In this document: one piece after another, positions 2,845 to 30,100 of the stretch
Numbering within the stretch: position 1 is the first letter of the stretch
Layout: the number at the start of each line of letters is the position of its first letter
DNA from: Reclinomonas americana ATCC 50394
Lineage: Eukaryota
DNA: 64,000 nucleotides
Direction of reading: 5' to 3'
Assembly (NCBI GenBank): GCA_048213135.1
Contig: PS015400.1
Coordinates: 1 to 64,000, forward strand
Notes under the pieces: generated by a model
The model's input: the letters and a program-made list of their open reading frames with translations, nothing else
Database searches by the model: none
What the model was told of the DNA's origin: nothing
Position numbers and translations under genes: made by a program

Positions 2845-3673
2845 GNNNNNNNNNNNNNNNNNNNNNNNNNNNNNNNNNNNNNNNNNNNNNNNNNNNNNNN
2901 NNNNNNNNNNNNNNNNNNNNNNNNNNNNNNNNNNNNNNNNNNNNNNNNNNNNNNNNNNNNNNNNNNNNNNNNNNNNNNNNNNNNNNNNNNNNNNNNNNNN
3001 NNNNNNNNNNNNNNNNNNNNNNNNNNNNNNNNNNNNNNNNNNNNNNNNNNNNNNNNNNNNNNNNNNNNNNNNNNNNNNNNNNNNNNNNNNNNNNNNNNNN
3101 NNNNNNNNNNNNNNNNNNNNNNNNNNNNNNNNNNNNNNNNNNNNNNNNNNNNNNNNNNNNNNNNNNNNNNNNNNNNNNNNNNNNNNNNNNNNNNNNNNNN
3201 NNNNNNNNNNNNNNNNNNNNNNNNNNNNNNNNNNNNNNNNNNNNNNNNNNNNNNNNNNNNNNNNNNNNNNNNNNNNNNNNNNNNNNNNNNNNNNNNNNNN
3301 NNNNNNNNNNNNNNNNNNNNNNNNNNNNNNNNNNNNNNNNNNNNNNNNNNNNNNNNNNNNNNNNNNNNNNNNNNNAGCTGAAGGTGGAAGTAACGATGAG
3401 ATCGATTGCCTCTTTGTCATCCTCAGTGAATCATCTAACGCCTGTGGCTTGCTCAGTAGCTCAACACACGTCGATATATAACTATGCATCGATACCGGTA
3501 TTAGTCTCGAAGTGAACTTCGCAGTCGCGGAAAGTGCGTGGACTGTAAACAACGATGTTTTACGGCTTCCTTCCACAGTGCACACTCAATGGACTGGCGC
3601 ACACCAGCACAGACAGATACAGGCATGCTTCCGTCGTCCCCTTGTCCTCCACTCACATCTTGTCACGCACCAA

Positions 3674-6600
3674 TGAGTGCGCGCAAACACCGCAAGCTTC
3701 TCGCGAGCAGCAGCACCAAGAAGAAGAAGAGGCGACATCGCGAGCCACCCTCTGCCTCAGAACGTGATGACGACAGTGACTATGTGCCTGAAATGGAGGA
3801 GGGAGAAGAGGATGAGGATGATGAGGAAGATGAACTTGCAGATCTTGTGAAAGAGGAAGAAGAAGAAGGAGAGGAGGAGAAGCAGCTTCCCGAACGCAGT
3901 GTTCGTCATCGTCGAGCTTCTGAGGGACTGGATGCGTCGGAGGAGAGCAGCAATGTTCTGTGCGCAATTGGAATGGTGGAGAGTGCGAGGCACTTGGTGC
4001 AGAAGCGGGAAAAGTATTCGGGCAAGAAGCGCGTCGTCGTGAATGAGGAGAATGTGGAGGAGGGTAAGGGAGGTGAGTGGAGACACACACTCTCTGTGCA
4101 TTTTTTCATTGCTCCTCGAGTACCTCTCTCTCCCTGTCTCTCTCCCTATCTCTTTCTGTCTCTCTGTCTCTGTCTTCCTGCTCTCTCAGCAGCTGGTTTC
4201 GTTTTGGCAAGGCTTGCAAGTCTTGTCTCTCTGTCTCTCTCTTCCTGCTCTCTCAGCAGCTTGTAAGGCTTGCAAGTCCTGTGTGTCTCTCTCTCTCTCT
4301 GTCTGCATCTTTTCTTTGCTCCTCGTGTGCCTCTCTTCTTGCGTTGTCTTGTGCTTGTCGTTCTCTCCCTATCTCTCTCTCCCTATCTCTGTCTCTCTCT
4401 TCCTGCTCTCAGCAGCTTGTTTCGTTTTGCAAGTCTTGTGTCTCTCTCTCTCTGTGAGCGTGTCTGCATCTTTCGTGGCTCCTCGTGTGCCTGTTCCTTT
4501 CCGTTGTGTCTTCTTCTCCTTCACCCTATTCTTTCCCCCTGTTCCTTCCCCCTTCTCCTTCCCCCTTTCTCCCCCTTCCCCTTCCCTTTCCCCTCCCCTC
4601 CCCTCTTCCTCCCCCTTCCCGCTCTTCCTCCCCCTGTTCCTTCCCCTTCCCCTTCCCCTTCCCCTTACCCTTCCCCTTACCCTTACCCTCACCCTTACCC
4701 TTACCCTTACCCTTCCCCTTCCCCTCCCTTCCCCTCCCCTCCCCCCTTCCCCTTCCCCTTCCCCTTCAACCTTCCCCCTCCCCCTCTTCCTCCCCTTCCA
4801 GAGTACTCTTACTGCCCAATCGAACGCGAGCCTCCCGACGACATCTCCGCCACGTGGAACAAGGCATCGCGGTGGAATGTCTTAGAGAAACTCGTCCGCA
4901 CCTCATGGAGACGGTGCGTTGCTTTATTGGAAGGGGGCGGGAATTGGAACATCCTTTTCCTCTTCCTTCTCCCTTTGCCATTCCCTTCTATCTTCCCCCT
5001 TCTCAAGCGCTCGTTCTCAAATGCTGACATGCAGTGATGTCGACGCTCCGAATCCGAACTTGTTGCCGATTGAGACGGCGCCGTGCAGCTCCACCAACGC
5101 CGACGTGCAGGCGGCGTATGCAGAACTGCGCGAGGTGATTGCGGCGCTGGTGGAGGAACAGCTCTACGCTTCGTCGCTCCCATTGTTGTCCGATTCGATG
5201 CCGCCGGATGAGCACGATTTCGCGGAGGTAGAGAACGCGGCGGCGATGGAGCTCCTCGCCGTTCTCACTTCGTCCCTGCGGCGATTCGAACGCGATGAGC
5301 GGTACGTGCGTCCGAGAGCTTTGTTGCGTGTTCGAGTGCTGTTTACACCCTTACGCAGCGACGCCACCCTCGTCTCCTCCATCACCGATCGCTGTCTGCG
5401 GACGTGTGATGGTGCCGTGCGTGCCTCGCTGCATCTGCTTGTCCGTCAGTGGTGCGGTGCTGTTGATGCGCGACTGGAGTGCGCGTGGTTGCCATTGCAC
5501 TCACTGCGGGGGTTTTTTCGCGTTCTCGACAGGGAGTCGAAAAGGAAGTTGAACAACCCCAGGCGGCCACATGTACCTCTTGCCGCGGCGTGTTTGCAGC
5601 CAAATGTGCCGGGGAAGTTGCGCGAGAGGAGAGGGGAAGGGAAGGGAGGGGAAGGGGAAGGGAGAGGGGCATGTGAGGATATGAGACTGACTTGGAAGAG
5701 GGGAGACCGAGAAAAAGGTTGAGGGTGAGAATAAGTGAAGAAATGGCGAGAGAGATGAAAAGATGCACAGGCGTAGAAGTAAGAGAAAGTGCAGGAGGGA
5801 CGAGGTAAGGGAATCAGAGACAACATCTGGAGTCGTGAGGAGACAGGAAGGACAGCAGAAAGATATGGGGTTAGAATTGCACGGGGGGCGGAGAGCGTGA
5901 AACATGTGAGAGGTGAAAAGGCAGATACGCATTGGCGCGGAGTGGAGGTACTGGAAGGAAGCGATAAAACATGATAGTTGGCAAGCAGGGTATAGAGCTG
6001 TCACGCCAACATGTTGGTTGAAGAGCACATGAAACATGTTGTTTTGCTTTTTTTGTATTTCCCAAATCACATTCCCTTTTCTTTTCTCCTCTCTCTTTCA
6101 GCTCCTCACTCCCTACCCTCTCAATGCTGTTCCTCGTTCCCCTCGTTCCTCCTTTCCTTCTTTTCTCTCCTCTCGTCACTCTTCCCATTTTTTCACTGCC
6201 CTCCTTTCCACCCATTTCCTTCCAGTTCCCTCCTTCCTCCTCTCACTGCTCCTCTCCTCTCATTGCTCTCTCCTCTCGTTGCTTCGCTTCGCTGACTTTG
6301 CATGCCTGCCAGGGTCATCCAACGCGTTCACAAATCCATGGCCGACCTCTTCTCTGAAAAGACGCCCCAGGTGAGTTGTACACACTTTAGAGTACTTTGT
6401 GCTGCACTGCAGTCGTGATCTTACTGGTGCGAGTGCCCTGTGTTGCCGATTGAAGAAACAGACGCCGAAAAAGAGAGCGGTGAGCTGCCTTTTGTAATGC
6501 GCCGTAAACGAGTTTTTAGTGTCTCACTCTGACGACAGCCTGTGGAGCCTGAGGAGGAAGAGGCGGATGAGGTTTGTCGCGTTGCGGGCAAGTCTCGTGG

Positions 6601-9600
6601 CACACGCATCTACCGCCCACCCGTTATTCGCAGTCGAGCGAAGAGGAGAGAGGCGAAGACGACAAAGGGCACCGCGAGGCAGTTGCGCTCGCAGACTGCT
6701 GCGTGCTCTCCCTTCTTTCCTCACAGCTCTGTACAGGAGGACACGGACGAATCACAGGAGATTGTCGCCAAGGTTGCGTACGCGCCCCGCTCTCCTCTAT
6801 CTCCCTTGCCGTGCTCAGTTCATCACTGTCTGCTGCAGCCTGCGCGACGCGCCACCAAGAGAGATTTAGTTACGCAACTTGGAAGCAACCGGCCACGCTT
6901 TTTGTGTTGACTCGTGTTCGGCGTGCAGCGGGCACGGTCGAAGGGCGATGTCATTGTCGAGTCGGTGGGTGCTCGAGTTGCTGAGATCGATTGCCTGCAG
7001 CCTCTGACATGTGCTTTATCGCAGCTGGAGGTTATGGACAGTCCGCGATCGTCACAGGTACTCGCAGTACGCTGATAGGAGAAGGGACTTGTGAGGAGGA
7101 TGAAGAGGAGAAGAGTGATCTCTCTCTGAAAGAGAAAAGAGAAACTCTCTCTCTCTGAAAGAGAAAGGAGACGCTCTCTCTCTCTGAAAGAGAAAAGAGA
7201 CACTCGCTCTCTCTCTCTCTGTGGTGCTGACCCTCGTGTACTGCAGGATTCGGAGAGCAAACGCGCTAGTCCACTCGTGTCCTCGGTGCGGTGTATTGCG
7301 TGCTCATTTGTCGTCAGCAGTGAACTTATCCACTCCATTGCGCAGCTGCACGACGATGAAGATGAGCACAGGCAGTCGGTGAGTTATTTGCCGAAATGTG
7401 CGGTCATTGTGGTATGGAATACTGAGATCAAATCAATACAGCCGGTGGTCGAGGAGGACGAGGAGGATGCGGAAGAGGAGAAGAAGAAGAAAAAGAGGAA
7501 GAAGAGGGTGAAGAAAACGGAGCAGGAGAAGAAAAAGAAGAAGAAGATGAAGGAGGTTTGTTGGCTCTGAGTGCGTGCAGGGTCGGTTGGATGTGAGGTA
7601 ACTGACTGTGGTTGCGTTCATTGAACAGGAGAGCAGCGAGGAGGACAAGGAGGTGAGTGGGGAAGGGAAAGAGGGTAGGGGGAAGAGGAAACGGAGAAGG
7701 AGACGGATGTGTTGAGCTGAAGATCTGTAAGAAAGTGATGAGCTTTTGTGGAGAAGCTGAAAGAAGCAAGGGAATTATGGAGGAGGGGGGCATGATTGTG
7801 TTGACTAAATAGGAGAGCAGCGAGGAGAACGAGGTGATGCCAGGAGACAGAAGCAAGGGAAGTGCAGAGGAGAAGAGCAAGAACGAGGAGGGAGGCATGA
7901 TTGTTTACGGCCACGTCGGTAATTGACTCCGTTGTGTTGCTTGAACAGGAGAGGAGCGAGGAGGACGATGAGGAGGCAGAGGTGAGTAGTGAGGGGTAGA
8001 GAAGGGAAAGGAGAGAGAGGGTGGCTGTGGCGCGCCGGTTGCTGACCTTTCTTTGATGATCGAATAGGAGGCCGACGATGAGGAGGCAGAGGTGAGTAGG
8101 GAGGGGAGTAGAAGAGAAGGGAATGGGAGCGAGGGTGTGAGCCGGTTGCTAATCTTGGTCTATTGATCGAATAGGAGGCGGACGATGAGGAGGCAGAGGT
8201 GAGTAGGGAGGGGAAGAGAAGGGAAAGGAATGGGAGAGAGGGGGTAGGGGTGGGTGTGACGCGTCGGTTGCTGACCTTGCTTTGTTGATCGAATAGGAGG
8301 CGGGCAAAGAGGAGGAGGAGGTGAGTAGGGAGGGGGGAAGAAGGGAAAGGAGAGAGAGGGGAGGGGTGGGTTTGGCGCCGGCTGCTGACCTTGCTTTGAT
8401 GATCGAATAGGAGGCCGACGATGAGGAGGCAGAGGTGAGTAGGGAGGGAGGAAGGAGAGAGGGGGGAGGGGTGGGTTTGGCTCCGGTTGCTGACCTTGCT
8501 TTGTTGATCGAATAGGAGGCGGACGATGAGGAGGCGGAGGTGAGTAGGGACGGGGAGTAGAAGAGAAGGGAATGGGAGCGAGGGTGTGAGCCGGTTGCTG
8601 ATCTTGGTCTATTGATCGAATAGGAGGCGGACGATGAGGAGGCAGAGGTGAGTAGTGAGTGGGAGGGAAGGAAGTGGAAGGGGGAGGAGGAAAAGAGCAA
8701 GGAGAAGAAGAATGTCGAGATATATCGGCTCACTTCGCTTTTGTGTCAATCTACAAGGAGAGCGACGAGGACGAAAAGGTGAGTTTGGTCTCAGCGGCCG
8801 AGAAGGAAAGAGGGAAAGGCAAGCGGAGCAGTGGGAGTGGAGGGAGGGAGTGCGACACTCGATGGATGACTGTGCCACATGTTTGAATAACAGAAAGATG
8901 TTCTTGTAAGTGGAAATGAGTGTGAGCGAGGATCCAGAAAATAGTATTGCTTTCTCTTCACATGTGTGCACGTCGTTTGCTGTCTTTTGTGTCAATCGAA
9001 CCACGAGAGCAGCCAGGAGGACGAGATGATCACGGGAAGAGAAGAGAGGAGGGTGGAGTGGGAGGAGGGAGTGTGACAAGAGCGGGAACTGAGAGGAGGA
9101 TGCAGAAATGAGTTTGCCAAGCTCCCCCTGCTTGAATTGGAGAGCGGCGAGGACAAGGAGGGCAAGGAAGGGTGGAGAGAAAGTAGAGCGGAGCAGTGGA
9201 GTGGGAGGAGAGAGTGTGGCATGCGAACGGAGTGGTTGTCAGTGTGGGAAATAGAGAGGGACGCAGAATTGAGTATGGTTAGCACTCCCTGGTGGAATAG
9301 AGCGGAGAAAGGAGGAGAGAAAGTAGAGCAGAGCAGCGGAGTGAGAGGAGTGCGTGTGACACTCATGTTGAGAGGAAATGAGAGGTGGATGCAGAAGTGA
9401 GTTTGTCAAGCTTGCCCTACTTGAATAGGAGGAGGGGGAACGAGATCTGTCGAGCGTTTCATCGAGATCAGCACGAACAATGAGAGAAAGGACGCAGCTC
9501 GGTGTGTATCACTCACTCGCTTTGTTGCAGAAACGTGCCAAATTGAAGCGACGACTCGCAAAGGTTTGTCAGCACATCCGTCGAGTGCCTCCAGCTTCTC

Positions 9601-9907
9601 ATCACTCACCTCTTTGCTGCAGGAACGTGCTGAGGCGAAGCAACAGCGCGTACAGGTACCTCGTCGATCACCTCTGTTTCTCTTGTGCCCGTTTTGTCGC
9701 TGAATCCGCGCCCCGCAGCAGGAGTGTGACGAGTTGCAAATGAAGCAGCGGAGCGACAAGAAGGTATGGTTGATTGTGTGCTTGTCCCGTGCCTGTTTGC
9801 TGACTTGTTCCTCGTCGCAGCGTGCAAACCGCAAGAGAGCACGATCGCCGGCCGAGTCCGACGACTCGCCCGCGCCACCGCCAAAGAGGCGCTCACGGCG
9901 CAAGTGA
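3674..9907 (+). CDS. Large acidic/basic low-complexity protein of unknown function, probably nuclear; many exons including a micro-exon array
   Basis: Exons flanked by [12 protein letters not shown]...[64 protein letters not shown], ten E/D-rich micro-exons, and a last exon [28 protein letters not shown]. That all of these form one gene is an inference. Confidence 0.5.
4100..4800. repeat. Intronic pyrimidine-rich region: (CT)n tracts, three imperfect copies of cttcctgctct(ct)cagcagc, then CCCTTC/CCCTTA repeats
   Basis: Directly visible at ~4175, ~4240 and ~4400, and at 4530-4800. Confidence 0.85.
7621..8785 (+). repeat. Tandem array of intron+micro-exon units (105-134 bp period in the core)
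   Basis: Repeated gctgac...ttgatcgaatag GAGGC(C/G)GACGATGAGGAGGCAGAG gtgagt. Exons at 7629, 7813, 7949, 8068, 8175, 8297, 8411, 8516, 8624 and 8758. Confidence 0.9.
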
Positions 9908-10025
9908 AGCGGAGAAGAGTATTGTCGACAGAGTTATTGATTGGTTGTCGTCATTTCACAGCATGTACATTTGATTGACAGTGGGCGGGAAGGCAAAGGA
10001 TTAATTGCACCACGCAAGTGTTCCC

Positions 10026-12116
10026 TCACTGCGGCAGCGGCCAGCCGAGGCCGCGGAAGCCGGAGAACATGTCCCAGCACTTGTGCATCGACTTGAGCTT
10101 GTCGGACTCGTCGAACACCATTGTGTAGACGTAGTCGCACTGGGCGCTCTTCGGCGGCTCCGACGGGGGGATGGGGCCACCGGCCCCAGAGTGGGTGATG
10201 AAGAAGCTGCGCATGAAGGGGGAAAGTGAGTGGTGGATGAGAGGAGACGGGGGTGGGGGTGGTTCGCGTGCTCACCGAGCGACGACGACGGCGGTGCGCT
10301 CGTGGTCGTTGAAGGCCCAGGCGCGGACGTCGTAGGTGGCGCCAGGGGCGATGCCGGTGACGAGGCCTGGTCGAGGAGGGGGAGGGAGGGGGGGAAGGTG
10401 AGGGGAGGGGAGGGGAAGGGGAAGGGAGGAGGGGGGGAGGAGGGGGGAGAAGGAAGAAAGAAAGGATGAGAACGGAAGTGAGTGGAGAGGAAAGAGAAAG
10501 GGAGAAGGAGGAAAGAACGGAATGAGAAGGGGAGTGGGTGGAGAGGAACGAAAAGGAATGAGAAGGGCAAAAGAATGGGAAGGAGAGGAAACCAAACTAC
10601 ATCAGGTGGATGGGTAAGTTCCACACTTTGCGTGCAAGACAGCAACGATGCGAAGAGCAGATGAGGTGCTGGCGGAGGTGAAGAGCGTACAGTACAAGAA
10701 CAGTGCACGACAAGAGCAACATGAGCAGAAACATGACAGTCAGAGTGAGAAAACTGTGCTGAGTGGGTGAACGGGGAAAGAAGTTGCATATTCTCTCTTG
10801 AGGAAGCCGTACATCGGTGTTCGGGGCGAGACAGAGAACGAAGAGCGCCAGTGCAGGTGCACGAAGGAGAAGGAAAGAGAGAGAGAGAAGGAGAGAGACA
10901 GACAGACATAGAGACAGAAAGAGCGGATACACTCGCGAAAAAAGAGTTGCGCATTGAGATATCAGAGAATAGAGCAAGTTGCGACAGCACGGCCAGCAAA
11001 AGATTGCAGTCCATGCCACCTATATAGCGCGAGAACGGAACTGGAGAGTGAGACAGACAAAACAAGCAAGAGACGCGTATGGATGAGAGACGCGTATGGA
11101 TGAAGAGCACAAGGCGACGAGAGAAGAGTGCACGTCATACGAAGGGTCGTGAGAGAGGAAAGCACACCTGCACGAGAGAGCGAGCACATGCAGAGTTGGA
11201 AAGGGAGAGGGAGTGGGTAAGCAAGGACAAGTCTTGCGCAGAGAGGTGCCACACGAGAGACGAGTGCGCATCCGCTCGTGTGTGACGCGAATGCACAGCC
11301 ACTAACCCTTCATCCAGTCAGCATCTGCACATGCATGCACCACATCAGCAACCACTCGCCACACACAACAAGCACAAAGAAGCACGCAACATTCGCCAAC
11401 GGTCTTCATCGGCAACACGTCGCACTGGAACGTGTTGTCCGGGGCCAGGAACTCGGCCACACCTTCACCGCCCTGCGAATATTGGAGGTAATGGGAGAAA
11501 TATATCAGCAATTACGAACACGCGGTGACGAGGGAAAGAAAGGTGAGCAGACAACGAGGAGAGTGCAGAACAGGAGGTGGTGGAACACGGTGAGTGACAG
11601 GAGAAGTGAGACAAGAGACATGCAAGTTTGACATGATGAAAGCAAGAGGGAGAGAGTGAGAGTACGAGGAGATGGCGTAGGAGAGGAGTGTGTGTTGAGT
11701 GAGTGCTGGGAGGAGGGGAAGAGAGGGAGAGACAGAAGGTTGGAGCAAGGAGACATTTCCCACCTCGGGAAAATACTCACGCACTTGTCTTGCACAACAC
11801 GCAGCGCACAAACAGAAAACGGACACACACAGTATGGCAGCACATCATGCAAGAGTGTGCGTGTGTGTTCCGTGTGTGTGAGGAAGAGAGAGAAGAGAGA
11901 GAGAGAGAGAGAAAAGTGCAATGCATTCACACACACACACGCATGCATGCAAGTCAATCACTCACCGCGCCGCTCTCGACAGCGACAAAGAATGCGTGTG
12001 CTGCGTCCTGCGCACACACACAAGAGAGCAGAGAGAGAAAGAGAGCACAAGTCAGTCACACACTCACAGAACATGAGAAGCATTTTTTGCGTTGTGTTAC
12101 TCACGTGGAAAGACAT
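10026..12116 (-). CDS. SnoaL-like / NTF2-fold protein (polyketide/ester cyclase-like), ~141 aa, 6 exons
   Basis: Exons 12116-12105, 12007-11966, 11472-11391, 11324-11307, 10366-10276 and 10206-10026 splice GT-AG in frame to MSFHDAAHAFFVAVESGAGGEGVAEFLAPDNTFQCDVLPMKTVGEYADWMKGLVTGIAPGATYDVRAWAFNDHERTAVVVARFFITHSGAGGPIPPSEPPKSAQCDYVYTMVFDESDKLKSMHKCWDMFSGFRGLGWPLPQ. The pattern resembles bacterial SnoaL-like proteins (FF..E.G.G, WMKG, H.G.GGP.PP, DYVY, LGW). Confidence 0.8.
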
Positions 12117-17033: not shown

Positions 17034-18866
17034 ATGCGCGCACCAGTGGCACTGCTGCACAGACATGTGCATGTCGCCTCTCTGCTTACCGCACTGCTGC
17101 TGCTTGCGCTCCTCCTTGGCGCTGCACATGCGACCGCGACAAGCGATCCATCCTCGCTGCAACGCATCATCGATCGCGTCGACAAGGTCGCACAACGAGT
17201 CGACGAGCTGCGAGAACGCGCCACCACTGTGCTCGTGGAAGCACAAGCTCGTCGTTCTTCTCACGAGCAGGTGCCAACACCATCACCGATCGATCGCGAG
17301 GTCTGTCATGCCTCTCTCACTCTCTGTGCGTGCGTGTGTATACTCAACAGCTGTGGTCAGTCAAAGGAATGCCCGCAATGCCCCTCGTGCCCCTCCTCGC
17401 CAAGCTCACCTCCTTCACCGCCTGCATCATGCGATTCATTCGCCATTCAACCGCTGCTGGCGAAGCCGGGCAGTGCGCGCAAGTTCTGGTACTTTGTGCC
17501 GAGGTCTGTCTCCAAACACTGTGTGCATTCATAGTCCATCTTCCGAGCGTTCCCTTGCTGATTGATCGATGATGGTGCACAGAGACGACGGGTTCAACAA
17601 TCAGGTGTGTGCGTCTCGTGACACAGCGATGGACGCTTGTTCTCATCGTTGGAGTTGCAGAAACTCGACGTAGTTCGCGCTATTGCCTTGGCGCGACTCA
17701 CACGGCGCACACTCGTGCTCCCCGAGTTCTCCGAGGAGGTCATGTGGGGCGTGGATCGCACTCGATTGCAGCCGTGGCCGTTTGCGGACTACTACGATCT
17801 CGAGGCGTTGCGCGAGTATGTGGATGTGGTGACGGTGGATGAGTTTCGCGACGAGTGCGGCGGGCAGTTGGAGTACTGGGGTTGTGCGCCGACATTTGGG
17901 TGCGATGAGCCGCGGCTGGCCCGCGTGCAACGCATCAACCTCGGCAGCCACAAGTCGAAGCTGCCGAACACACTGCCGGCGGTGCTGAAAGCCGTCGTCG
18001 ATGCACCGCGGTGCGCGGGCGGTCTGCCCGAGACGTCGTCTATGGTGTCGGTGTTGGGCGAGTATTCCAAGCACACTGTCGACACGCATCAGGGATTCAT
18101 GCTTGCTGCTCCTGGTTTCCGCGAAGTGTGGACTCTGTTGCGGCCGAGCGCGGTGGTGCAGCAGACGATTCAACGCTTCCGCGACGTCTTTGCTCTTCGC
18201 GAGGGTCAGTACGACTGCATCCACGTCCGTCGAGGCGACTACAAGGTGTGTCTGTCGTCGTTTTCGTGGCCGTGTTGGCAAGTGATCCCTCACCGCGTCC
18301 ATGATCAGGCTGGCGCCAACTGCAAGTTCCTCTCACCCGCCGAGTGTGCCGTGGCTGGCCCCAATTCGACCTACCAGCCCGACGACTACCTGTTGTCCAC
18401 CGTGCGCCAGCGACTACTGGACGGTGGAGAGCAGGGCTCGGTGCCGCTCCTGATCGCCTCGCACCACAAGGACGCGGACGATTTGCTGCGCTTGTTCTCC
18501 TCGTTGTATCCAAACAACAGGGTTTGTTTGTGCTTGTGTGCGCCACTCACTGTGAACCGTGAACTGATTCGATGCTTACTGCTGTGTGCAGTTGATCAGC
18601 CTGCACAAGCCGCCAAGTCCATACTCGGAACTCGGTGAGTTTGCACGTCCTTCTGTGCATCCTCGCGCAATGACACTCACTTGCTCACCCACCCATGCAC
18701 AGACTTTCCGGAGCAAGCTTCACGGAATGACATTCGCGGCTTGGCCGAGCAGCAGTTGTGCGGCGACGCCCGTCGCTTCATCGGCAACAGGTTCTCCAGC
18801 TGGAGCGCACACGTGTTCCTATTACGCGAGGCCAAGTTGTTAGACGACAGCACTTCTCGCTGGTAG
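17034..18866 (+). CDS. GDP-fucose protein O-fucosyltransferase family (O-FucT) protein
   Basis: Signal/TM (LLTALLLLALLLG), short coiled coil, DGFNNQ, LARLTRRTLVLP, CIHVRRGDY and EQQLCGDARRFIGNRFSSWS. Confidence 0.85.
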
Positions 18867-19065: not shown

Positions 19066-20780
19066 TCAGCGACGGAGCACACGTCGAGGAGCTGCGGCCG
19101 CACCCGATGACGAAGCGCCGCTTGCCACCGCCTGACTCGCGTCTTCGTCGCCACCGCCTGCCGAAATCTGCACAGTCGTACAGTGAGTCGGCGTGCACGC
19201 AAACAACTCGGAGGTGAGCTTACAACGCACATCGAGCAGCTTCTCCAACATTTGCGTCATGATTGGCCGAATCCAGTTCGTCTCCAGCGCCGACAAGTTG
19301 TTCACACGCACACTGGTCACTGGCCGATCGAGAGCCTTGAGACCGGTGAGGATCTTCTCCTGGCGCACATGCTCTATGTCGTGCAGCAGGCTGCGGATCA
19401 ATGTGTGGTCCTCCAAGCACGAGGGCGCACTGACACACGACTGTTCGTCAGAGAATGGGAGTGGAGGAAGAGAAGAGAAGTCGCACAGGCAGACGCACCC
19501 GTCGAGCAATGCACGCGCGACCTCTACATAGTGCGGCGGGAGAGCCTCGAACGAGCTCTCGGAAGTCTTCTCCATGTCGAGCACCTGTTGCATGGAGGCT
19601 GCCGCACAACTCACTAGTCAACTCATTGCATACACAGACACATAGTCTTATGCGAACGGGCACGCACCAACAGAGAGCCAATCAGGAGGACGAATGGTCG
19701 CCTGTGTGAACGAGTGAGCACATGCACAACAACAACAGCAGCAGCAGCTCGTGACACTCTCTCACCTTGTTGACTTTCACCAAGTGCAGAGCCAGCCACA
19801 GAGGAACATGAGTGGATCGTGGCGGTTTGAAGGGTCCAAACGTGCCCTGTGTCACAAAGTGTGAACAACAAGATAATGACTCTCTCTCCGCTATCACTCT
19901 CACAGACCCCTGTCAATTCCAGCACGCCCACAGGCACCAGAGGCACAATCTGCACCTCCTCCTCTCCTGCCAGGAACTCCATCTCTNNNNNNNNNNNNNN
20001 NNNNNNNNNNNNNNNNNNNNNNNNNNNNNNNNNNNNNNNNNNNNNNNNNNNNNNNNNNNNNNNNNNNNNNNNNNNNNNNNNNNNNNNNNNNNNNNNNNNN
20101 NNNNNNNNNNNNNNNNNNNNNNNNNNNNNNNNNNNNNNNNNNNNNNNNNNNNNNNNNNNNNNNNNNNNNNNNNNNNNNNNNNNNNNNNNNNNNNNNNNNN
20201 NNNNNNNNNNNNNNNNNNNNNNNNNNNNNNNNNNNNNNNNNNNNNNNNNNNNNNNNNNNNNNNNNNNNNNNNNNNNNNNNNNNNNNNNNNNNNNNNNNNN
20301 NNNNNNNNNNNNNNNNNNNNNNNNNNNNNNNNNNNNNNNNNNNNNNNNNNNNNNNNNNNNNNNNNNNNNNNNNNNNNNNNNNNNNNNNNNNNNNNNNNNN
20401 NNNNNNNNNNNNNNNNNNNNNNNNNNNNNNNNNNNNNNNNNNNNNNNNNNNNNNNNNNNNNNNNNNNNNNNNNNNNNNNNNNNNNNNNNNNNNNNNNNNN
20501 NNNNNNNNNNNNNNNNNNNNNNNNNNNNNNNNNNNNNNNNNNNNNNNNNNNNNNNNNNNNNNNNNNNNNNNNNNNNNNNNNNNNNNNNNNNNNNNNNNNN
20601 NNNNNNNNNNNNNNNNNNNNNNNNNNNNNNNNNNNNNNNNNNNNNNNNNNNNNNNNNNNNNNNNNNNNNNNNNNNNNNNNNNNNNNNNNNNNNNNNNNNN
20701 NNNNNNNNNNNNNNNNNNNNNNNNNNNNNNNNNNNNNNNNNNNNNNNNNNNGCACTGCGGAAAGTGTTCACGCTCTCCAT
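19066..20780 (-). CDS. PSF2: GINS complex subunit Psf2
   Basis: MESVNTFRSA|EMEFLAGEEEVQIVP, GPFKPPRSTHVPLWLALHL, FEALPPHYVEVA, IRSLLHDIEHVRQEKI and VNNLSALETNWIRP. Confidence 0.92.
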
Positions 20781-23417: not shown

Positions 23418-25963
23418 CAGGTCACCACAAGTGTTCAACCCGCTGGTCGCGCTCACATGCACCGCCACTACCTTCTTTGCAGCATTGCATTCCACCGGAG
23501 CCAGCAGGCGTGTTGTCTTTTTTTGCAAAGTGCTGCGCGTGCTCTCACTCTCACAGCTCCTGATGCAGCAGCAACAGTGCTGGCTCATTAGCGCATCGGC
23601 ATGCACTGAGCGATGAGATGCTGAAGTGGTTGAGCGAGCGTCGATGGAATGCGCAGCGTGGCGAGTGGGAGACGCAGTTGCCGATGCCGATTGTGCATGG
23701 TCGGCGACACTTGCCGCTTCTGTATGGGCGCTATGAGTTGCTCGGGGCACTGGGAGAGGTTTCGTGTCGTGCTGCGAGGAGGGAGGAAGGCGGGCGAGTT
23801 GTTCCGACCGTTTGCGATGCAGGGTGCGTTCTCGTTCATCTTCAAGGCTCGCGACCTGGCGGCTGTTAATAAGATGCCGCGTTGTGTGGCCATCAAGGTG
23901 CGCGGTGTTAGTGGAGAACACCGAGCTTTGCGCTCTTGTTTTTGTTGAGCTGGGCACGGTGCAGATCATGAAGCCGGGCGACGATGCAATTGGTGTGGAC
24001 GAAGCCGATGTGATTCGCAGGTTGCACCGCGATGCCGACGGCGCCGACATTAATGTGGTGCGTGTGCGGCGGACGTTTTGGGTCGATGGGAGATACTGCA
24101 TTGGTGAGTGTGCAAGTGCAGGTGTGCGATCGCTGCAGTGCTCAGTCGTTGCTGATCGCGTGGCAGTGTTTGAGTTGCTGCAAGAAACGCTCTTGTCGTA
24201 CTACCGCAGCATACCTGCACGATCCATTCCCATTGCCACGCTGAAAAAGATCGCTCTGCAAATGATGTGTGCGCTGGAGCTGTTGAGACAACACACGATG
24301 GTGCGTTGGGTGTTCTCTTTTGTATGCCAGCACCGCGCTGACGAGCTGCACTCTGCAGTTGCATGCCGACCTCAAGCCGGAGAACGTGCTGTTCAGTCGC
24401 AATGACAGTGCCGACGATGGGGGCAGCGGCAGCGGCGACGGTTCGCAATCGGCTCGCATCAAGATTGCCGACTTTGGAAACAGCTTTCGCTTGGACACGC
24501 GGTCGTTGTACTATGAGGATTTCCAGGTGCAGAGCCTCTTCTATCGAGCCCCCGAGGTGCGGTTGTAGTTGTTGTTGGTGGTTGTGTCGTTGTCTCTCAC
24601 CTCTGCGATCAGGTGCTGTTGGGGTGTGATTTCGGTTTTCCCATTGACATGTGGAGCGTCGGCTGCATTCTGTGCGAGCTGTACTTGACGGAGCCACTGT
24701 TCCGGTGTGCCACACCCACGGCCATGTATTTGCAGCTGAGCAAGTACTATGGCCGCAACTTTGCACGGCGACACTTTGCCAATGGCGTGTATTACCGTTC
24801 CTACGTGCCATCGATCATGGACGCTCAGGGACCGCCAAAGTTGCGTGCGCCGAGACTGGTTTGTTTTCCGAGCTGTGCACGACGGCACTTTACTCACTTT
24901 TTGTATGCGTGTGACAGGCCGCTGAGCCGTGCGGAGGAAGTGGGGCAGACCATTGCGACGTACAGTGAGATACTGGACTCGGGCGATCATCAGTTTGTCA
25001 GGTTTGTTTGCTGTGGAGGCGATGCGTCCATCCCCGTGCATGACCGTGCCCGACTGCTTGCGCGCAGTTTCATCGCTGGCCTGATGATGGTCAACCCGAA
25101 TGCCCGTCTGACACCGTTGGAGGTTTTGTTTCTTCACCCCGGCCAGTCTCACAATATTCTGACCTCTCCTTGGTTTGCAGGCCCTGCGTCATCCTTTCCT
25201 GTCTTCCCTCTGCCCGTTCAGACTGCTTGTTCCATCACCCGGGCAGCCCAGTGTGCTTGAACATGTTGGAAACCGACTGTCGGGTCCGTGCGCCGTGCTG
25301 GGCCGAGTGGCGTCATCGTCGTCCCAGGAGTCAGCGGCCGGAGGGTGAGCTCGCCACTGCCACTTGTGTTTCGTGCTTTGTCGATTTCACTCAGTTCATG
25401 TGTCCCGCAGTCCACACTTGTTGTCGCCACTGTCACCAATCGGATTGTCATCCTCGTTATCGTCTGCGTCGTCTTCGTCGTCGTCGGGCGCATCGCTGCG
25501 CAGGTGCGTGAGTGCGTTTGTTGTTCTTGACGAGTGCGACATCTTCTCACGCGCATTCAGCAGCGTCGTGGATTCGTTCCCTCCAGCACCAGCGATACCG
25601 AGACCTGGGCTACCGCATGTTGGCAACGGAATGGACGAGGATGGGGAGGAGGAAGACGAAGAAGTGGTGGAACTGCCCGTTAGTCGCCCAGCAGGAGCAT
25701 CCGCCGCTGCAGCCGCTGCAGCAATGCTCAGCCGTTCACCACAAGCTGGACCTTCGTCCTCGTCACCACCACCACCACCACCACCGGCTGCACCACTAAG
25801 CGCCGCCGCCTCGGCTCACGAGCGTTTCGCCAAGAGCGCTGTCGCTCGCATGATCGCCACAAGTCAGCAGTCGCACCAGCGAACGGCGCACGAGGCGGGA
25901 CTGCCTGACCCGATACCACACAAGAGGCCTGCGCACGAGTCGCAAGTGAGGAGCTCCAGCTAA
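23253..25963 (+). CDS. CMGC kinase, DYRK/HIPK-like
   Basis: YELLGALGE|GAFSFIFKARD, VAIK, HADLKPENVL, IKIADFGNS, QSLFYRAPEVLLG and IDMWSVGCILCEL, followed by a low-complexity tail. The start codon is uncertain. Confidence 0.85.
23370..23413. repeat. (GT)n microsatellite in intron
   Basis: Directly visible. Confidence 0.95.
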
Positions 25964-25997: not shown

Positions 25998-26436
25998 ATG
26001 TCCCGTCGTCGCTGCGGTATTCAACCAATCGCACTGATAGAAAGAATGAGAACATCGCTCGTGCCCTCTGACAGTGACTCGCACGAGTGCTACGCATGCG
26101 GTCGCCCATTTCACTTGCCATGTGAGTGAGATGACAGTCGCTCCGCACCCCCTCCATCGCCTCATCACTGCACACAGGCGCATCGTGCGAGTTTGAGTCC
26201 AGCACAGGGCCCTGCGTGCTGGTCACTGGCGACTGTGGTCACTGGTACGACTTGTACACTACGCATGCGCTGTCTTTTTCTCACTCTCTCGTGCATGCAG
26301 TTTCCACGCGCATTGCATCGAAAATCAGCAGTTGTCAGCATCACGATCGCATCACTTCATGTGCCCGCTGCACGACACCGGTACGCGACCGGCGCTCTGT
26401 GTGTGAGAGGGAGGAGACGTACGCGTGTCACTTGAC

Positions 26437-26468
<32 letters not shown>

Positions 26469-27023
26469 CAGCGGTTGAGTGGCACGAGGTGGAGAGGTCT
26501 CCGTTGCGAGCGGCACCTCCGCGACTTGTCGGCGGTAGCAGATTCGAACAGAGGCCAACTTCCGCACCGCCCATGCGGACAGAGGGCATTCCCACCGTGT
26601 GCCTCATCTGCCACACTCATTTGCTGGATCACTGTGCGTGAGGAGGAGGAGGCAGAGGGAGAAGAGATTCATCTTCTGATTTCGCTGCCATGTGCAGGCA
26701 TTATGTGCAAGCGCGATCCGGCATTGGCACACTTGTGTTCCGTGGCCAATGGCGAGTGTGGTCACTGGTTTCATGCACACTGTATCGAGTCGCACACCAC
26801 GTGTCCACTCGATGGTTCGTGGCCTCTCTGTGCCTTCACCGTGAAGGTTGATAAGGATCCTCACCAATCCTGGCTTGTAGGGCGACAGTGGACTGAGTGC
26901 ATTCAACCTCGCGACACGCTGCTGAATGATGACGACGACGACGATGATGATGATGATATCTACTGTAGAGTACCAATGGCGCCACCGCCCCCCATCGACG
27001 ATGACTTAATCGGCGACTTGTAA
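25998..27023 (+). CDS. Protein with two tandem Rbx1/Apc11-like RING-H2 domains and an acidic tail
   Basis: Spliced: CYACGRPFHLPCASC...CVLVTGDCGHCFHAHCIE...CPLHD...W, then CLICHTHLLDHCIMC...CSVANGECGHWFHAHCIESHTTCPLDGRQW. Both match the Rbx1 spacing CxIC..C..C..C.V..G.C.H.FH.HCI..CPLD..W. Confidence 0.8.
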
Positions 27024-27141: not shown

Positions 27142-30100
27142 TTACTCGTCCTTGACGGCCTTCTTGCTGCCGCCAAACACGGCCGACTTGATGAGCCTGC
27201 CCACGGCACGCACACGCGACCAGAACGAGCGAGCATACACGGCAATAATGCCCTCCGACACAATCTCCGTCGCATTGCTGGGAGTTGGGTAGAGCATAAT
27301 ACCGGGCATGGGGATGCGAATGGGGAAGCGATCCGACACGCACGACTGTGCAGGTGAGCAGTGAGCGATCCATGAGCGTTGCGTGCTTCANNNNNNNNNN
27401 NNNNNNNNNNNNNNNNNNNNNNNNNNNNNNNNNNNNNNNNNNNNNNNNNNNNNNNNNNNNNNNNNNNNNNNNNNNNNNNNNNNNNNNNNNNNNNNNNNNN
27501 NNNNNNNNNNNNNNNNNNNNNNNNNNNNNNNNNNNNNNNNNNNNNNNNNNNNNNNNNNNNNNNNNNNNNNNNNNNNNNNNNNNNNNNNNNNNNNNNNNNN
27601 NNNNNNNNNNNNNNNNNNNNNNNNNNNNNNNNNNNNNNNNNNNNNNNNNNNNNNNNNNNNNNNNNNNNNNNNNNNNNNNNNNNNNNNNNNNNNNNNNNNN
27701 NNNNNNNNNNNNNNNNNNNNNNNNNNNNNNNNNNNNNNNNNNNNNNNNNNNNNNNNNNNNNNNNNNNNNNNNNNNNNNNNNNNNNNNNNNNNNNNNNNNN
27801 NNNNNNNNNNNNNNNNNNNNNNNNNNNNNNNNNNNNNNNNNNNNNNNNNNNNNNNNNNNNNNNNNNNNNNNNNNNNNNNNNNNNNNNNNNNNNNNNNNNN
27901 NNNNNNNNNNNNNNNNNNNNNNNNNNNNNNNNNNNNNNNNNNNNNNNNNNNNNNNNNNNNNNNNNNNNNNNNNNNNNNNNNNNNNNNNNNNNNNNNNNNN
28001 NNNNNNNNNNNNNNNNNNNNNNNNNNNNNNNNNNNNNNNNNNCTCTGTCGCACAGACCTTCTGTCGCGTGCAGCCCCGCAGACCCTCGACGCCGTTGAAC
28101 TTGCCGAATCCTGAGATCTTGACACCGCCGAACGGCAGCGTCTGGATCAGGTAGGGGATGCCAAAGTCGTTGATGATGGTCTGTGCGCGCCACAGACACG
28201 CTGGTGAGCGGTGAGCCACGAGGACTGAAAGAACTAATGACTCACCGAGCCGGCCACAAGTTGCTTGCCCATGGCCTCCGCACGAGCATAGTTGGTGGAG
28301 AAGATCGACGACGACAAGCCGTAGCCTGCATCGCATGGGTGCGTGCGCGGTGAGAAAAAACAGTAACTGGAGGGAACCAAGGACGACTGCACGCATCACA
28401 CCAGTGCTGTTGGCATATTCCACGACCTCGTCATCCGAGCTCCACTTGAGCACGAGCATCACCGGGCCGAAGGCTTCCTCGTTCACAATGCGCATGTCGT
28501 GTGTGCAGTCCACCAGCACTGCAGCATTATCATTCGAAATCAGTGACGAGCGAGGCTCGACAACATGCCACACTCACGCAACTCGTAGGCTCGTAGAACT
28601 GGCCGCTGGGGTAGGCCGGGTTGCGGCGGCCACCGGCAAGCACGCGTGCGCCCTTGCTGACGGCGTCGCGCACCAGCTCTTCGACCTTGCCGATCTGTGA
28701 CGGCATGGTCATCGCACCGAGATCGACACCCGTCGGATCGCCGANNNNNNNNNNNNNNNNNNNNNNNNNNNNNNNNNNNNNNNNNNNNNNNNNNNNNNNN
28801 NNNNNNNNNNNNNNNNNNNNNNNNNNNNNNNNNNNNNNNNNNNNNNNNNNNNNNNNNNNNNNNNNNNNNNNNNNNNNNNNNNNNNNNNNNNNNNNNNNNN
28901 NNNNNNNNNNNNNNNNNNNNNNNNNNNNNNNNNNNNNNNNNNNNNNNNNNNNNNNNNNNNNNNNNNNNNNNNNNNNNNNNNNNNNNNNNNNNNNNNNNNN
29001 NNNNNNNNNNNNNNNNNNNNNNNNNNNNNNNNNNNNNNNNNNNNNNNNNNNNNNNNNNNNNNNNNNNNNNNNNNNNNNNNNNNNNNNNNNNNNNNNNNNN
29101 NNNNNNNNNNNNNNNNNNNNNNNNNNNNNNNNNNNNNNNNNNNNNNNNNNNNNNNNNNNNNNNNNNNNNNNNNNNNNNNNNNNNNNNNNNNNNNNNNNNN
29201 NNNNNNNNNNNNNNNNNNNNNNNNNNNNNNNNNNNNNNNNNNNNNNNNNNNNNNNNNNNNNNNNNNNNNNNNNNNNNNNNNNNNNNNNNNNNNNNNNNNN
29301 NNNNNNNNNNNNNNNNNNNNNNNNNNNNNNNNNNNNNNNNNNNNNNNNNNNNNNNNNNNNNNNNNNNNNNNNNNNNNNNNNNNNNNNNNNNNNNNNNNNN
29401 NNNNNNNNNNNNNNNNNNNNNNNNNNNNNNNNNNNNNNNNNNNNNNNNNNNNNNNNNNNNNNNNNNNNNNNNNNNNNNNNNNNNNNNNCTGTCGGTCCCT
29501 GGCGCATCTTCTTCGTTTTCTCGGCCACCTCCTCAATGAAGCGGTCGTACACTGTGTCCTGCACGTAGATGCTACGAAGCCAACACCACTTCAGCCATGT
29601 GGCCGCAGCGCGTGGAACCAGGGCACGATGCTCACCGTTCTGCCGCCAGACAGTTCTGACCGCAGTTGGTGAACACGCCGCGCATCACGTAGCCCATGAC
29701 CTGCGTCCAGTCGCAGTCGTCGCACACAATGAAGGGGTCCTTGCCACCCAGCTCCAGCACCACGTCGGTGAGATTGTCGGCGGCGGCCTTCATCACACGC
29801 TTGCCGTTCTCGGGGGAGCCAATGAACAGAATCTTCTCCACACCGGAGCGCACCAGTGCCTCGCCCGTCACACCGTCGCTGCACGCAACACAAAGAGTGA
29901 GAAGTTGGCAGAGGGAGAAAGAAAGAGAGAGAGGGAGAGAGCACGTACGAACCCGAGCAGCAGCTGCACGAGTTCGGCGTCGTGGCCATTGCGATGCAGC
30001 GCATCTTGAATGAAGCTGAAGAAGACACGTGCCGACCATGCTGCATACTCTGACGCCTGTGGATGCACACAAACACACCCGGGTGAGCCAGTGGTCTGTT

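What the first reader, a model, noticed from the sequence alone, without database searches (positions are those of the whole stretch)
7621..8785. Tandem array of ten phase-0 acidic micro-exons, each duplicated with its own intron
Seen: ten 21-33 nt exons (7629-7652 ESSEEDKE, 7813-7833 ESSEENE, 7949-7981 [11 protein letters not shown], 8068-8091, 8175-8198, 8411-8434, 8516-8539 and 8624-8647 EADDEEAE, 8297-8320 EAGKEEEE, 8758-8778 ESDEDEK). All lengths are multiples of 3 and all lie between an AG and a GTGA donor. In the core units the branch-like motif (gctgac/gctaat/gctgat), acceptor, exon and donor are conserved while the purine-rich spacer varies. Inference: the repeat unit is an intron+exon cassette, so exon skipping or copy-number change could tune the length and charge of an acidic tract without frameshift. 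This is reminiscent of schistosome micro-exon genes, but here in an apparently nuclear protein.
Basis: partly seen in the sequence, partly recalled or inferred. Interest (0 to 1): 0.75.

Follow-up and report, generated by a model that had tools for sequence, protein, structure and literature searches.

The report
Tandem acidic micro-exon cassette array
A gene of an unidentified microbial eukaryote appears to have built a long acidic protein tract by repeatedly copying a tiny 24-base exon together with its intron, but no RNA data could be found to show that the copies are really spliced.

Summary
All ten 21-33 nt segments sit at the stated coordinates. Each is a multiple of 3, open in one frame, preceded by AG and followed by GTGA.

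Six or seven of them form one tandem repeat of about 107 bp, made of a 24-nt exon plus an intron of about 83 nt (7958-8671). It is the highest-scoring tandem repeat in the window. The repeat grew partly by a recent copy of a four-unit block.

Each unit carries a full set of splice signals. These are a GTGAGTAG donor, a CTGAC-type branch about 23 nt before the acceptor, and an AG-free stretch of 25-52 nt in otherwise AG-rich introns.

The + strand can only encode the 81-residue tract (57 acidic residues) if these introns are removed. Two decayed copies downstream have lost both splice sites. The array lies inside a longer chain of phase-0 micro-exons running to a TGA at 9907.

What is missing is any evidence of transcription or comparison with relatives. 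No RNA run was listed, no genome is held, and no homologue was found.

Verdict: probably a real intron+exon cassette array (about 0.6). The idea that it tunes tract length is untested. It is a new variant of tandem exon duplication, comparable to titin PEVK, collagen and schistosome micro-exon genes.

The parts
7442..7555 (+). Putative upstream exon (114 nt, phase 0) encoding an acidic then lysine-rich stretch; donor GTTTGT
   Evidence: open 3n segment between CAG and GTTTGT
7556..7628 (+). Putative 73-nt intron leading into the first cassette; CTGAC branch-like motif 24 nt before the acceptor
   Evidence: The size and motifs match homology-supported ALDH introns of about 65-75 nt
7629..7652 (+). 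Micro-exon candidate 1, 24 nt, ESSEEDKE
   Evidence: Its intron tail plus exon is 82% identical to 7918-7973
7813..7833 (+). Micro-exon candidate 2, 21 nt, ESSEENE; donor GTGATG
7949..7981 (+). Micro-exon candidate 3, 33 nt, [11 protein letters not shown]; its 3' part starts the tandem array
7958..8671 (+). Core tandem array: 107-bp unit x6.4, each unit a 24-nt exon plus an 81-98-nt intron. Includes a higher-order duplication of a 4-unit block (7958-8241 vs 8411-8690, 88.9% identity)
8068..8091 (+). Micro-exon candidate 4, EADDEEAE
8175..8198 (+). Micro-exon candidate 5, EADDEEAE
8297..8320 (+). Micro-exon candidate 6, EAGKEEEE (the one diverged core copy; still 24 nt and open)
8411..8434 (+). 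Micro-exon candidate 7, EADDEEAE
8516..8539 (+). Micro-exon candidate 8, EADDEEAE
8624..8647 (+). Micro-exon candidate 9, EADDEEAE
8758..8778 (+). Micro-exon candidate 10, 21 nt, ESDEDEK; an older cassette whose intron tail is still alignable to the core units
8779..9428 (+). Putative 650-nt intron made of about four decayed cassette units with a period of about 140 nt
9005..9025 (+). Decayed cassette (pseudo-exon): CAC in place of the acceptor YAG, and ATGATC in place of the GT donor
   Evidence: alignment A4 and the sequence
9140..9160 (+). Decayed cassette (pseudo-exon): TTG in place of TAG, and no GT after the exon-like part
   Evidence: alignment A4 and the sequence
9429..9455 (+). Next putative exon after a cassette-type acceptor (TTGAATAG). 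Either 27 nt with a weak GTTTCA donor, or read through to 9563 (135 nt); both stay in frame
9531..9563 (+). 33-nt basic micro-exon ([11 protein letters not shown]), a paralogue of the next cassette
   Evidence: alignment A3
9623..9655 (+). 33-nt micro-exon ([11 protein letters not shown]), a paralogue of 9531-9563. The intron tails are more alike than the exons
9719..9763 (+). 45-nt phase-0 exon
9821..9907 (+). Terminal exon with a K/R-rich tail and a TGA stop

Best explanation
The region is the middle of a + strand protein-coding gene. The gene runs at least from about 6313 to the TGA at 9907 and may start at an ATG at 3649. Its 3' half is a chain of about 25 phase-0 micro-exons.

The ten segments are real exons. 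They descend from one ancestral cassette made of the 3' end of an intron (branch, AG-free tract, acceptor), an acidic exon of 21-33 nt, and a GTGAG donor with the 5' part of the next intron. Unequal recombination or replication slippage copied this cassette in tandem, most recently as a four-unit block. Each copy brings all the signals needed to remove the intron on either side, so in an organism that recognises short introns one by one every new copy is spliced in by default and adds 8 acidic residues without a frameshift.

Together the ten exons give an 81-residue tract with 57 Glu/Asp, next to lysine-rich stretches. This suggests a disordered acidic-basic region of a probably nuclear protein. 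Older copies that lose their splice sites become part of the long intron at 8779-9428.

Shown: the anatomy, the duplication history, the frame arithmetic and the decayed copies. Inferred: transcription, splicing, protein location, and any regulated skipping.
For: 1. Anatomy. 10 of 10 segments are AG|3n open frame|GTGA. In some searches the flanking intron-like segments are 73-160 nt. A CTGAC-, CTAAT-, CTGAT- or TTGAC-type motif lies 23-26 nt before the acceptor in 9 of the 10 introns from 7556 to 8757 (9 nt in the tenth). AG-free zones of 25-52 nt precede the acceptor, although AG occurs 0.11-0.15 times per nt in the rest of the nine GA-rich introns.

2. Control introns. In the ALDH gene on the - strand, introns placed by homology to P0003 are about 65-75 nt. 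Their donors are GTGAGA, GTTGCG, GTCTGG and GTTCGT/GTACGT, with CTCAC-type branches and CAG acceptors. The cassette introns therefore fit this genome's style. ALDH exons are about 110-270 nt.

3. Splicing is needed for coding. On retention, 9 of 10 introns have an in-frame stop inside the intron, and the tenth shifts frame to a stop at 8780. No + strand ORF of 40 aa or more crosses 7813-8623.

4. Duplication unit. TRF finds a 107-bp unit x6.4. A block at offset 453 is 88.9% identical over 287 nt.

5. Old cassettes keep their sites while the rest of the intron has diverged. 7597-7653 vs 7918-7973 is 82% identical over only the intron tail plus exon.

6. Internal negative control. Two related copies (9005-9025, 9140-9160) have lost both acceptor and donor.

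7. A second, independent cassette pair in the same gene (9531 and 9623) keeps a 33-nt length and near-identical intron tails while the exons diverged.

8. Among the five EADDEEAE copies, the only two variable sites are third positions of Ala codons, so both are synonymous (read). My rough arithmetic gives P of about 0.03, and the copies are not independent.

9. Uniqueness. These ten form the longest micro-exon chain in the window, 10 against 3-4 elsewhere. The intron-tail 31-mer occurs only in the array (4 of 4 matches, 0 expected).

10. The six - strand ORFs across the array match no Pfam family (0 of 6).
Against: There is no transcript evidence of any kind, and no orthologue to show that the acidic tract is part of a conserved protein.

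The gene's larger 5' ORFs match no family. Pfam gives only sub-threshold hits. HMMER against 1.84 billion representatives gave one hit, a repetitive protein that I judge spurious.

Most of the near-identity among core units reflects recent duplication. One intron pair, 8092-8174 vs 8540-8623, differs by one substitution and one indel. It therefore says little about selection. The spacer may vary more simply because it is slippage-prone simple sequence.

Once duplicates are collapsed, about five independent cassettes remain, against background chains of 3-4.

The cassette introns are purine-rich (66-76%) with TAG acceptors, unlike the pyrimidine/GT-rich control introns with CAG acceptors.

I chose the wider 25-exon chain with a filter that required 3n open frames, so its phase uniformity is partly circular. 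One exon was mis-set by 1 nt; it should be 6737-6772.

A short-read assembly with 11 N gaps may have collapsed or mis-ordered units.
Confidence: 0.6

Rival explanations
1. The array is a minisatellite inside one long intron, from about 7556 or 7653 to 9428 or 9530. It was seeded by duplication of one real or former exon with its flanks. The copies are pseudo-exons that are mostly or wholly skipped, so the mature mRNA lacks most of the acidic octapeptides.
For: All junctions are phase 0, so skipping the whole array also keeps the frame. The same gene model needs other long, repeat-filled introns: 4073-4802 with CCTTCC x43, and 8779-9428. Two cassette copies are demonstrably dead. The high identity of the units is explained by their youth.
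Against: Each unit retains a strong consensus donor (GTGAGTAG, 80/80 identical cells) and a complete branch/acceptor module. In a genome whose verified introns are about 65-75 nt, the nearest-pair introns of 73-160 nt should be removed one by one. The older cassettes 7629, 7813 and 8758 kept both sites and a 3n length although their introns diverged.
Confidence: 0.22
2. The region is not part of a functional coding gene. It is GA-rich, low-complexity repeat DNA in which AG and GT abound, and the exon-like pattern was propagated by duplication of one chance configuration.
For: The locus has no homologue or family match. GA- and CT-rich simple repeats are common around it. Loose intron-like patterns occur about 5 per kb on either strand across the window.
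Against: Downstream, four well-formed short introns (57-75 nt, CTCAC/CTGAC branches, CAG acceptors) join 33-45-nt open exons to a terminal ORF ending in TGA. The pyrimidine-containing, AG-free intron tails are sharply set off from the purine-rich bodies. Intron-like patterns are enriched on the + strand (10.3 per kb) and depleted on the - strand (1.9 per kb) across 6300-9910. The chain of ten is unique in the window.
Confidence: 0.1
3. The repeat encodes a repetitive protein on the - strand, where ORFs of 158-267 aa run through the array.
For: Six - strand ORFs of 140 aa or more overlap 7431-9238.
Against: The units are 105-122 nt long and not multiples of 3, so these ORFs change frame from unit to unit. 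They are open mainly because the - strand is A-poor. 0 of 6 match a Pfam family. The translations are low-complexity S/P/L-rich strings. Intron-like signals are depleted on the - strand here.
Confidence: 0.03

Closest known systems
Titin PEVK region (vertebrates)
   Same: Over 100 short, highly repetitive exons encode a disordered, charged tract. The region expands and contracts by tandem or segmental duplication of exon+intron blocks through replication slippage or recombination. Its length is varied by alternative splicing (PMC6469411, passages read).
   Different: There is no sequence relationship. PEVK exons are longer (I recall mostly about 75-90 nt; this figure is not from a call) and sit among long vertebrate introns. 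Here the exons are 21-33 nt with introns of about 80-160 nt, the tract is purely acidic, and splicing is unverified.
Schistosome micro-exon genes (MEGs)
   Same: [quoted passage not shown] The 3' half of this gene has the same look.
   Different: That paper reports that MEG products all carry a signal peptide and that MEGs appear restricted to platyhelminths. The candidate N-termini here are basic or non-hydrophobic. The genome has 65-75-nt introns and 57% GC, and its best named ALDH matches are amoebozoan. MEG micro-exons are not described there as a homogeneous tandem array of one cassette.
Fibrillar collagen 54-bp exon units
   Same: This is the classical case of a repetitive protein built by tandem duplication of a short phase-0 exon together with its intron (PMC2852846 and PMC4450265: search listing and abstract starts only; the 54-bp unit model itself is recalled).
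   Different: That unit is 54 bp and encodes Gly-X-Y triplets in a structural helix of animals. Here the unit is 24 nt and encodes an acidic disordered tract in a microbial eukaryote.
Introner-like mobile introns
   Same: Near-identical intron copies occur within one genome.
   Different: Introners are dispersed through many genes and do not carry an exon. Here the copies are strictly tandem, and the intron-tail 31-mer is found nowhere else in the 64 kb (4 of 4 matches lie in the array). The description of introners is recalled, not taken from a call.

Membership tests
Tandem exon-duplication array (titin PEVK / collagen type) | The repeat unit contains one exon plus one complete intron | tested here: met
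   A 107-bp unit made of a 24-nt open segment plus an 81-98-nt segment with donor, branch-like motif and acceptor
Tandem exon-duplication array (titin PEVK / collagen type) | Exons are symmetrical (3n, same phase), so copy number can change without a frameshift | tested here: met
   10 of 10 lengths are multiples of 3 and open in the same phase
Tandem exon-duplication array (titin PEVK / collagen type) | The copies are transcribed and spliced into mRNA | not testable with these tools
   No RNA run was listed, no genome is held, and no spliced form was found in metagenome contigs
Schistosome-type micro-exon gene (MEG) | Most of the coding region is made of very small symmetrical exons | tested here: inconclusive
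   Met for the putative 3' module 6314-9907, where 22 of 25 putative exons are 48 nt or shorter and all are 3n (though selected with a 3n filter). If the exons at 3649-5560 belong to the gene, micro-exons make up only about a third of the CDS by my estimate
Schistosome-type micro-exon gene (MEG) | The product has a signal peptide and is secreted | tested here: not met
   By inspection only: neither candidate start has a hydrophobic core (a basic MSARKHRK... at 3649; MADLFSEK... at 6338). No signal-peptide predictor was available
Schistosome-type micro-exon gene (MEG) | Alternative 'pick and mix' inclusion of micro-exons | not testable with these tools
   No transcript data
Schistosome-type micro-exon gene (MEG) | Platyhelminth origin | tested here: inconclusive
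   The organism is unidentified. The best named ALDH matches are dictyostelids and Acanthamoeba at 67-73% identity, and the introns of 65-75 nt and 57% GC do not suggest a flatworm
Introner-like mobile intron | Dispersed copies in unrelated genes | tested here: not met
   The 31-mer of the intron tail, with up to 3 mismatches, gives 4 matches, all inside the array. Only this 64-kb window could be searched

The most novel reading that the evidence does not exclude
A self-expanding micro-exon module has arisen outside flatworms, in a probably nuclear acidic-basic disordered protein of a short-intron protist. Intron+exon cassettes are born by unequal recombination, each adding 8 acidic residues. 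They are spliced in automatically because every copy brings its own splice signals, and they die by losing those signals and merging into a growing intron. Copy number between strains, or differential inclusion within cells, would then set the length and charge of the tract. This would be a compact, experimentally tractable model of exon birth and death and of charge tuning in disordered regions.
Probability: 0.2. Interest if true: 0.7.

Novelty: new variant of a known kind. Interest (0 to 1): 0.45.

Why it matters
If the cassettes are spliced, this is an unusually clean natural example of how a protein's disordered charged tract can grow in quantum steps by duplicating an exon together with its intron. 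Young copies, old copies and dead copies all sit side by side in under 2 kb.

It would also show that micro-exon-dominated gene architecture, so far described as a flatworm peculiarity (PMC4350168), can arise independently in a microbial eukaryote with short introns.

It also carries a practical warning for annotation. Gene predictors usually miss 21-24-nt exons, so such genes would be mis-modelled as having one long intron.

If the copies are not spliced, the region is merely a minisatellite that carries fossil splice sites.

Tried and rejected
- RNA evidence: the look-up of sequencing runs on 6300-9950 (kind rna) listed no RNA holder, so read laying could not be used. This is not evidence either way.
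- Whole genome: none is held.
- Homologues of the gene's largest ORF (5036-5560): the word-index search of longer proteins found none. Full HMMER against 1.84 billion representatives gave one hit, P0001, at E 4e-7. It is an internally repetitive 306-aa protein matching 33 residues, and I judged it spurious.
- Metagenome scans: the exact 24-nt exon gave 0 hits. The protein-pattern scan gave 519 pattern matches, none confirmed by tblastn.
- Organism identification: the O-FucT ORF gave no hits. The ALDH exon gave 672 hits, the best named ones being amoebozoan at 67-73% identity, which does not fix the lineage. P0002's high score comes from an internal duplication in that protein.
- Rfam at gathering thresholds: 0 matches in the window.
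- Pfam: 141 of 155 ORFs of 140 aa or more were scanned and the other 14. Nothing matched in 3505-10600. At E up to 1, only sub-threshold hits appeared (Rpc31, HAUS4 and others) for the gene's exons.
- A loose intron-pattern density test proved weakly discriminating, with a background of about 5 per kb.
- A strict-motif chain search broke the array into pieces because CTAAT/CTGAT branch variants were excluded. The relaxed version is.
- The ALDH rows used slightly wrong coordinates and are disregarded.
- Introner-like dispersal was rejected.
- A coding reading on the - strand was rejected.
- Reading 9504-9530 as an intron was rejected because 27 nt is far shorter than any control intron.
Full report
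**1. What is in the sequence**

The window is eukaryotic DNA with about 57% GC between eleven runs of N. At the coordinates given, all ten segments exist as described.
- Lengths are 24, 21, 33, 24 (six times) and 21 nt.
- Each is open in one frame and encodes E/D/S/A-rich peptides.
- Each is preceded by AG. Nine are followed by GTGAG and one by GTGAT.

Tandem Repeats Finder reports a 107-bp unit repeated 6.4 times at 7958-8671 (79% matches, 9% indels, score 793). It is the top-scoring tandem repeat of the whole 64 kb. One unit is a 24-nt exon-like segment plus an 81-98-nt intron-like segment.

**2. History of the array**

A blastn self-comparison shows the unit offsets of about 110, 217 and 339 nt. 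It also shows a stronger match at offset 453: 7958-8241 vs 8411-8690, 88.9% identity over 287 nt. This means a block of four units was copied recently.
- Within that block, one intron pair (8092-8174 vs 8540-8623) differs by one substitution and one indel.
- The outer cassettes are older relatives. 7597-7653 matches 7918-7973 at 82% over just the intron tail plus exon.
- The tail of the intron before 8758 is still alignable to the core tail.

An eight-way alignment shows a shared module: a T-rich tail, YAG, GAGAGCAGCGAGGAGGAC..., then GTGAG.

Two further copies in the long stretch 8779-9428 have lost both splice sites.
- 9005-9025 has CAC in place of the acceptor and ATGATC in place of the donor.
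- 9140-9160 has TTG in place of TAG and no GT after the exon-like part.

That stretch is itself a degraded repeat with a period of about 140 nt.

**3. Do the units look like this organism's introns?**

For a control I mapped an aldehyde dehydrogenase gene on the - strand (about 30740-27178). I used PDB matches and tblastn with P0003, a 71%-identical transcriptome-derived protein.
- Reading the splice sites gives introns of about 65-75 nt.
- Their donors are GTGAGA, GTTGCG, GTCTGG and GTTCGT/GTACGT, with CTCAC-type motifs 15-25 nt before a CAG acceptor.
- The ALDH exons are about 110-270 nt.

The cassette introns compare as follows.
- They are 73-160 nt long.
- They have the strongest possible donor, GTGAGTAG, invariant in 5 of 5 full core units.
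- Their branch-like motifs are CTGAC, CTAAT, CTGAT, TTGAC or CTCAC. The motif lies 23-26 nt before the acceptor in 9 of the 10 introns from 7556 to 8757, and 9 nt before it in the tenth.
- An AG-free zone of 25-52 nt precedes the acceptor, even though AG occurs 0.11-0.15 times per nt in the rest of the nine GA-rich introns.

They differ from the controls in being purine-rich (66-76%) and in using TAG rather than CAG acceptors. Micro-exons are not the norm for this genome, judging by the ALDH exons.

**4. Coding logic**

No + strand ORF of 40 aa or more crosses 7813-8623. If an intron were retained, 9 of 10 give an in-frame stop inside the intron, and the tenth shifts frame to a stop at 8780. 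The acidic peptides can therefore be joined only by splicing.

The ten exons sum to 81 residues: 57 Glu/Asp, 12 Ala, 6 Ser and 4 Lys/Arg.

Among the five EADDEEAE copies, the only two variable sites are third positions of the two Ala codons (read). Both are synonymous. This is suggestive (my rough estimate is P about 0.03), but the numbers are small and the copies are not independent. The sixth core copy (8297) has several non-synonymous changes but stays 24 nt, open and charged.

**5. Wider gene**

The array sits in a longer chain of candidate phase-0 micro-exons on the + strand.
- Upstream: 6456-6479, 6539-6571, 6634-6681, 6737-6772, 6929-6964, 7025-7057, 7247-7285, 7346-7378 and 7442-7555. 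One search printed the fourth of these one base off.
- Downstream: 9429-9455 (or read through to 9563), 9531-9563, 9623-9655, 9719-9763 and a terminal exon 9821-9907 ending in TGA.

The last four introns are 57-75 nt and have typical tails. The cassettes at 9531 and 9623 are themselves paralogues. Both exons are 33 nt, and the intron tails are more alike than the exons. This is an older, independent instance of the same growth mode and a hint of selection on the splice signals.

A caveat applies. I picked this chain with a filter that demanded 3n open frames, so its uniform phase is partly circular, and the middle part (6773-7246) is uncertain.

Larger exons at 3649-4072, 4803-4915 and 5036 onwards join in consistent phases by my reading. 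They may be the 5' part of the same gene.

The K/R-rich stretches suggest a nuclear protein. They are the lysine run in 7442-7555, [11 protein letters not shown], and the C-terminal KRRSRRK. This is inference only.

**6. Specificity**

A signal-based search for chains of phase-0 micro-exon candidates finds the ten cassettes as the longest chain in the window. The next best are 4 on the - strand and 3 on the + strand with the gene masked. A stricter motif set breaks the array into pieces.

Collapsing the young duplicates leaves about five independent cassettes, so this statistic alone is modest.

The intron-tail 31-mer occurs only in the array (4 of 4 matches, 0 expected), so it is not a dispersed, introner-like element in this window. 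The six - strand ORFs over the array match no Pfam family. They change frame from unit to unit because unit lengths are not multiples of 3.

**7. What could not be done**

- The gene has no detectable homologue.
- Metagenome scans with the exact exon and with peptide patterns found nothing.
- The organism remains unidentified. The best named ALDH matches are dictyostelids and Acanthamoeba at 67-73% identity, which is a weak hint at most.

**8. Interpretation**

The most likely reading (about 0.6) is a real array of intron+exon cassettes that grew by tandem duplication and is spliced into an acidic disordered tract.
- Every copy inherits a complete donor and a complete branch/acceptor module.
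- This genome removes short introns of 65-75 nt.
- Together these make default inclusion of each copy the mechanistic expectation.
- The two copies that lost both sites show what release from that role looks like.

The main rival (about 0.22) is that the array is a minisatellite within one long intron and its units are skipped. Frame arithmetic cannot separate the two readings, because everything is phase 0.

**9. Comparison with what is known**

The growth mode matches titin's PEVK region. That region has over 100 short repetitive exons, expands by slippage or recombination and block duplication, and has its length set by alternative splicing (PMC6469411, passages read). It also matches the classical collagen exon-unit model (PMC2852846 and PMC4450265, listings and abstract starts only).

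[quoted passage not shown] That paper reports that all MEG products have signal peptides and that the genes appear restricted to platyhelminths (PMC4350168, passages read). DeMarco et al. 2010 is cited there and was not read. Here the signal-peptide feature fails on inspection, so this is not a member of that family, only an analogue.

Two literature searches for tandem micro-exon arrays outside these systems turned up no protist case. They were keyword searches of an open-access library and do not prove absence.

**10. Verdict**

- Novelty: a new variant of a known kind (tandem exon duplication).
- Interest is 0.45, limited by the complete lack of expression data.

Noticed in passing
window 9531-9563 and 9623-9655: Two adjacent 33-nt basic micro-exons are paralogues. 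Their upstream intron tails (ATCACTCAC...TGCAG) are more conserved than the exons themselves, which marks an older cassette duplication in the same gene.
   Followed up: yes
window 9005-9025 and 9140-9160 (within 8779-9428): Decayed copies of the acidic cassette that have lost both acceptor and donor. The 650-nt stretch is a degraded repeat with a period of about 140 nt.
   Followed up: yes
window 27178-30740, - strand: An ALDH22-like aldehyde dehydrogenase gene split by introns of about 65-75 nt, one with an unusual GTTGCG donor. It is interrupted by N gaps. The best named relatives are dictyostelids and Acanthamoeba at 67-73% identity over one exon.
   Followed up: partly
window 4544-4799: A CCTTCC hexamer microsatellite x43 inside a putative 730-nt intron (4073-4802) of the same or an upstream gene. 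CT-rich and GA-rich simple repeats are common across the locus.
   Followed up: no
window 7119-7214: A 29-nt tandem repeat x3.3 (TCTCTCTCTGAAAGAGAAAAGAGACACTC) inside the putative intron 7058-7246.
   Followed up: no
window 10026-10271, - strand: An 81-codon ORF ends about 120 nt from the TGA of the micro-exon gene, which suggests a convergent, closely packed neighbouring gene. It has no Pfam match at E up to 1.
   Followed up: partly
window 10445-10556: A 56-nt GA-rich tandem repeat x2 just beyond the gene's 3' end.
   Followed up: no
window 17622-18635 (+), 19069-19617 (-), 24517-25257 (+), 26436-27020 (+): Single ORFs with Pfam matches to GDP-fucose protein O-fucosyltransferase, GINS Sld5, protein kinase and RING-H2. 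They confirm a gene-bearing eukaryotic region. The O-FucT ORF found no relatives in the word-index search.
   Followed up: no
window 2052-39598 (11 runs): Eleven runs of N (20-765 nt, 4561 nt in total) account for the apparent low-GC islands in the composition profile. None lies between 3376 and 13970, so the array is in uninterrupted sequence.
   Followed up: yes
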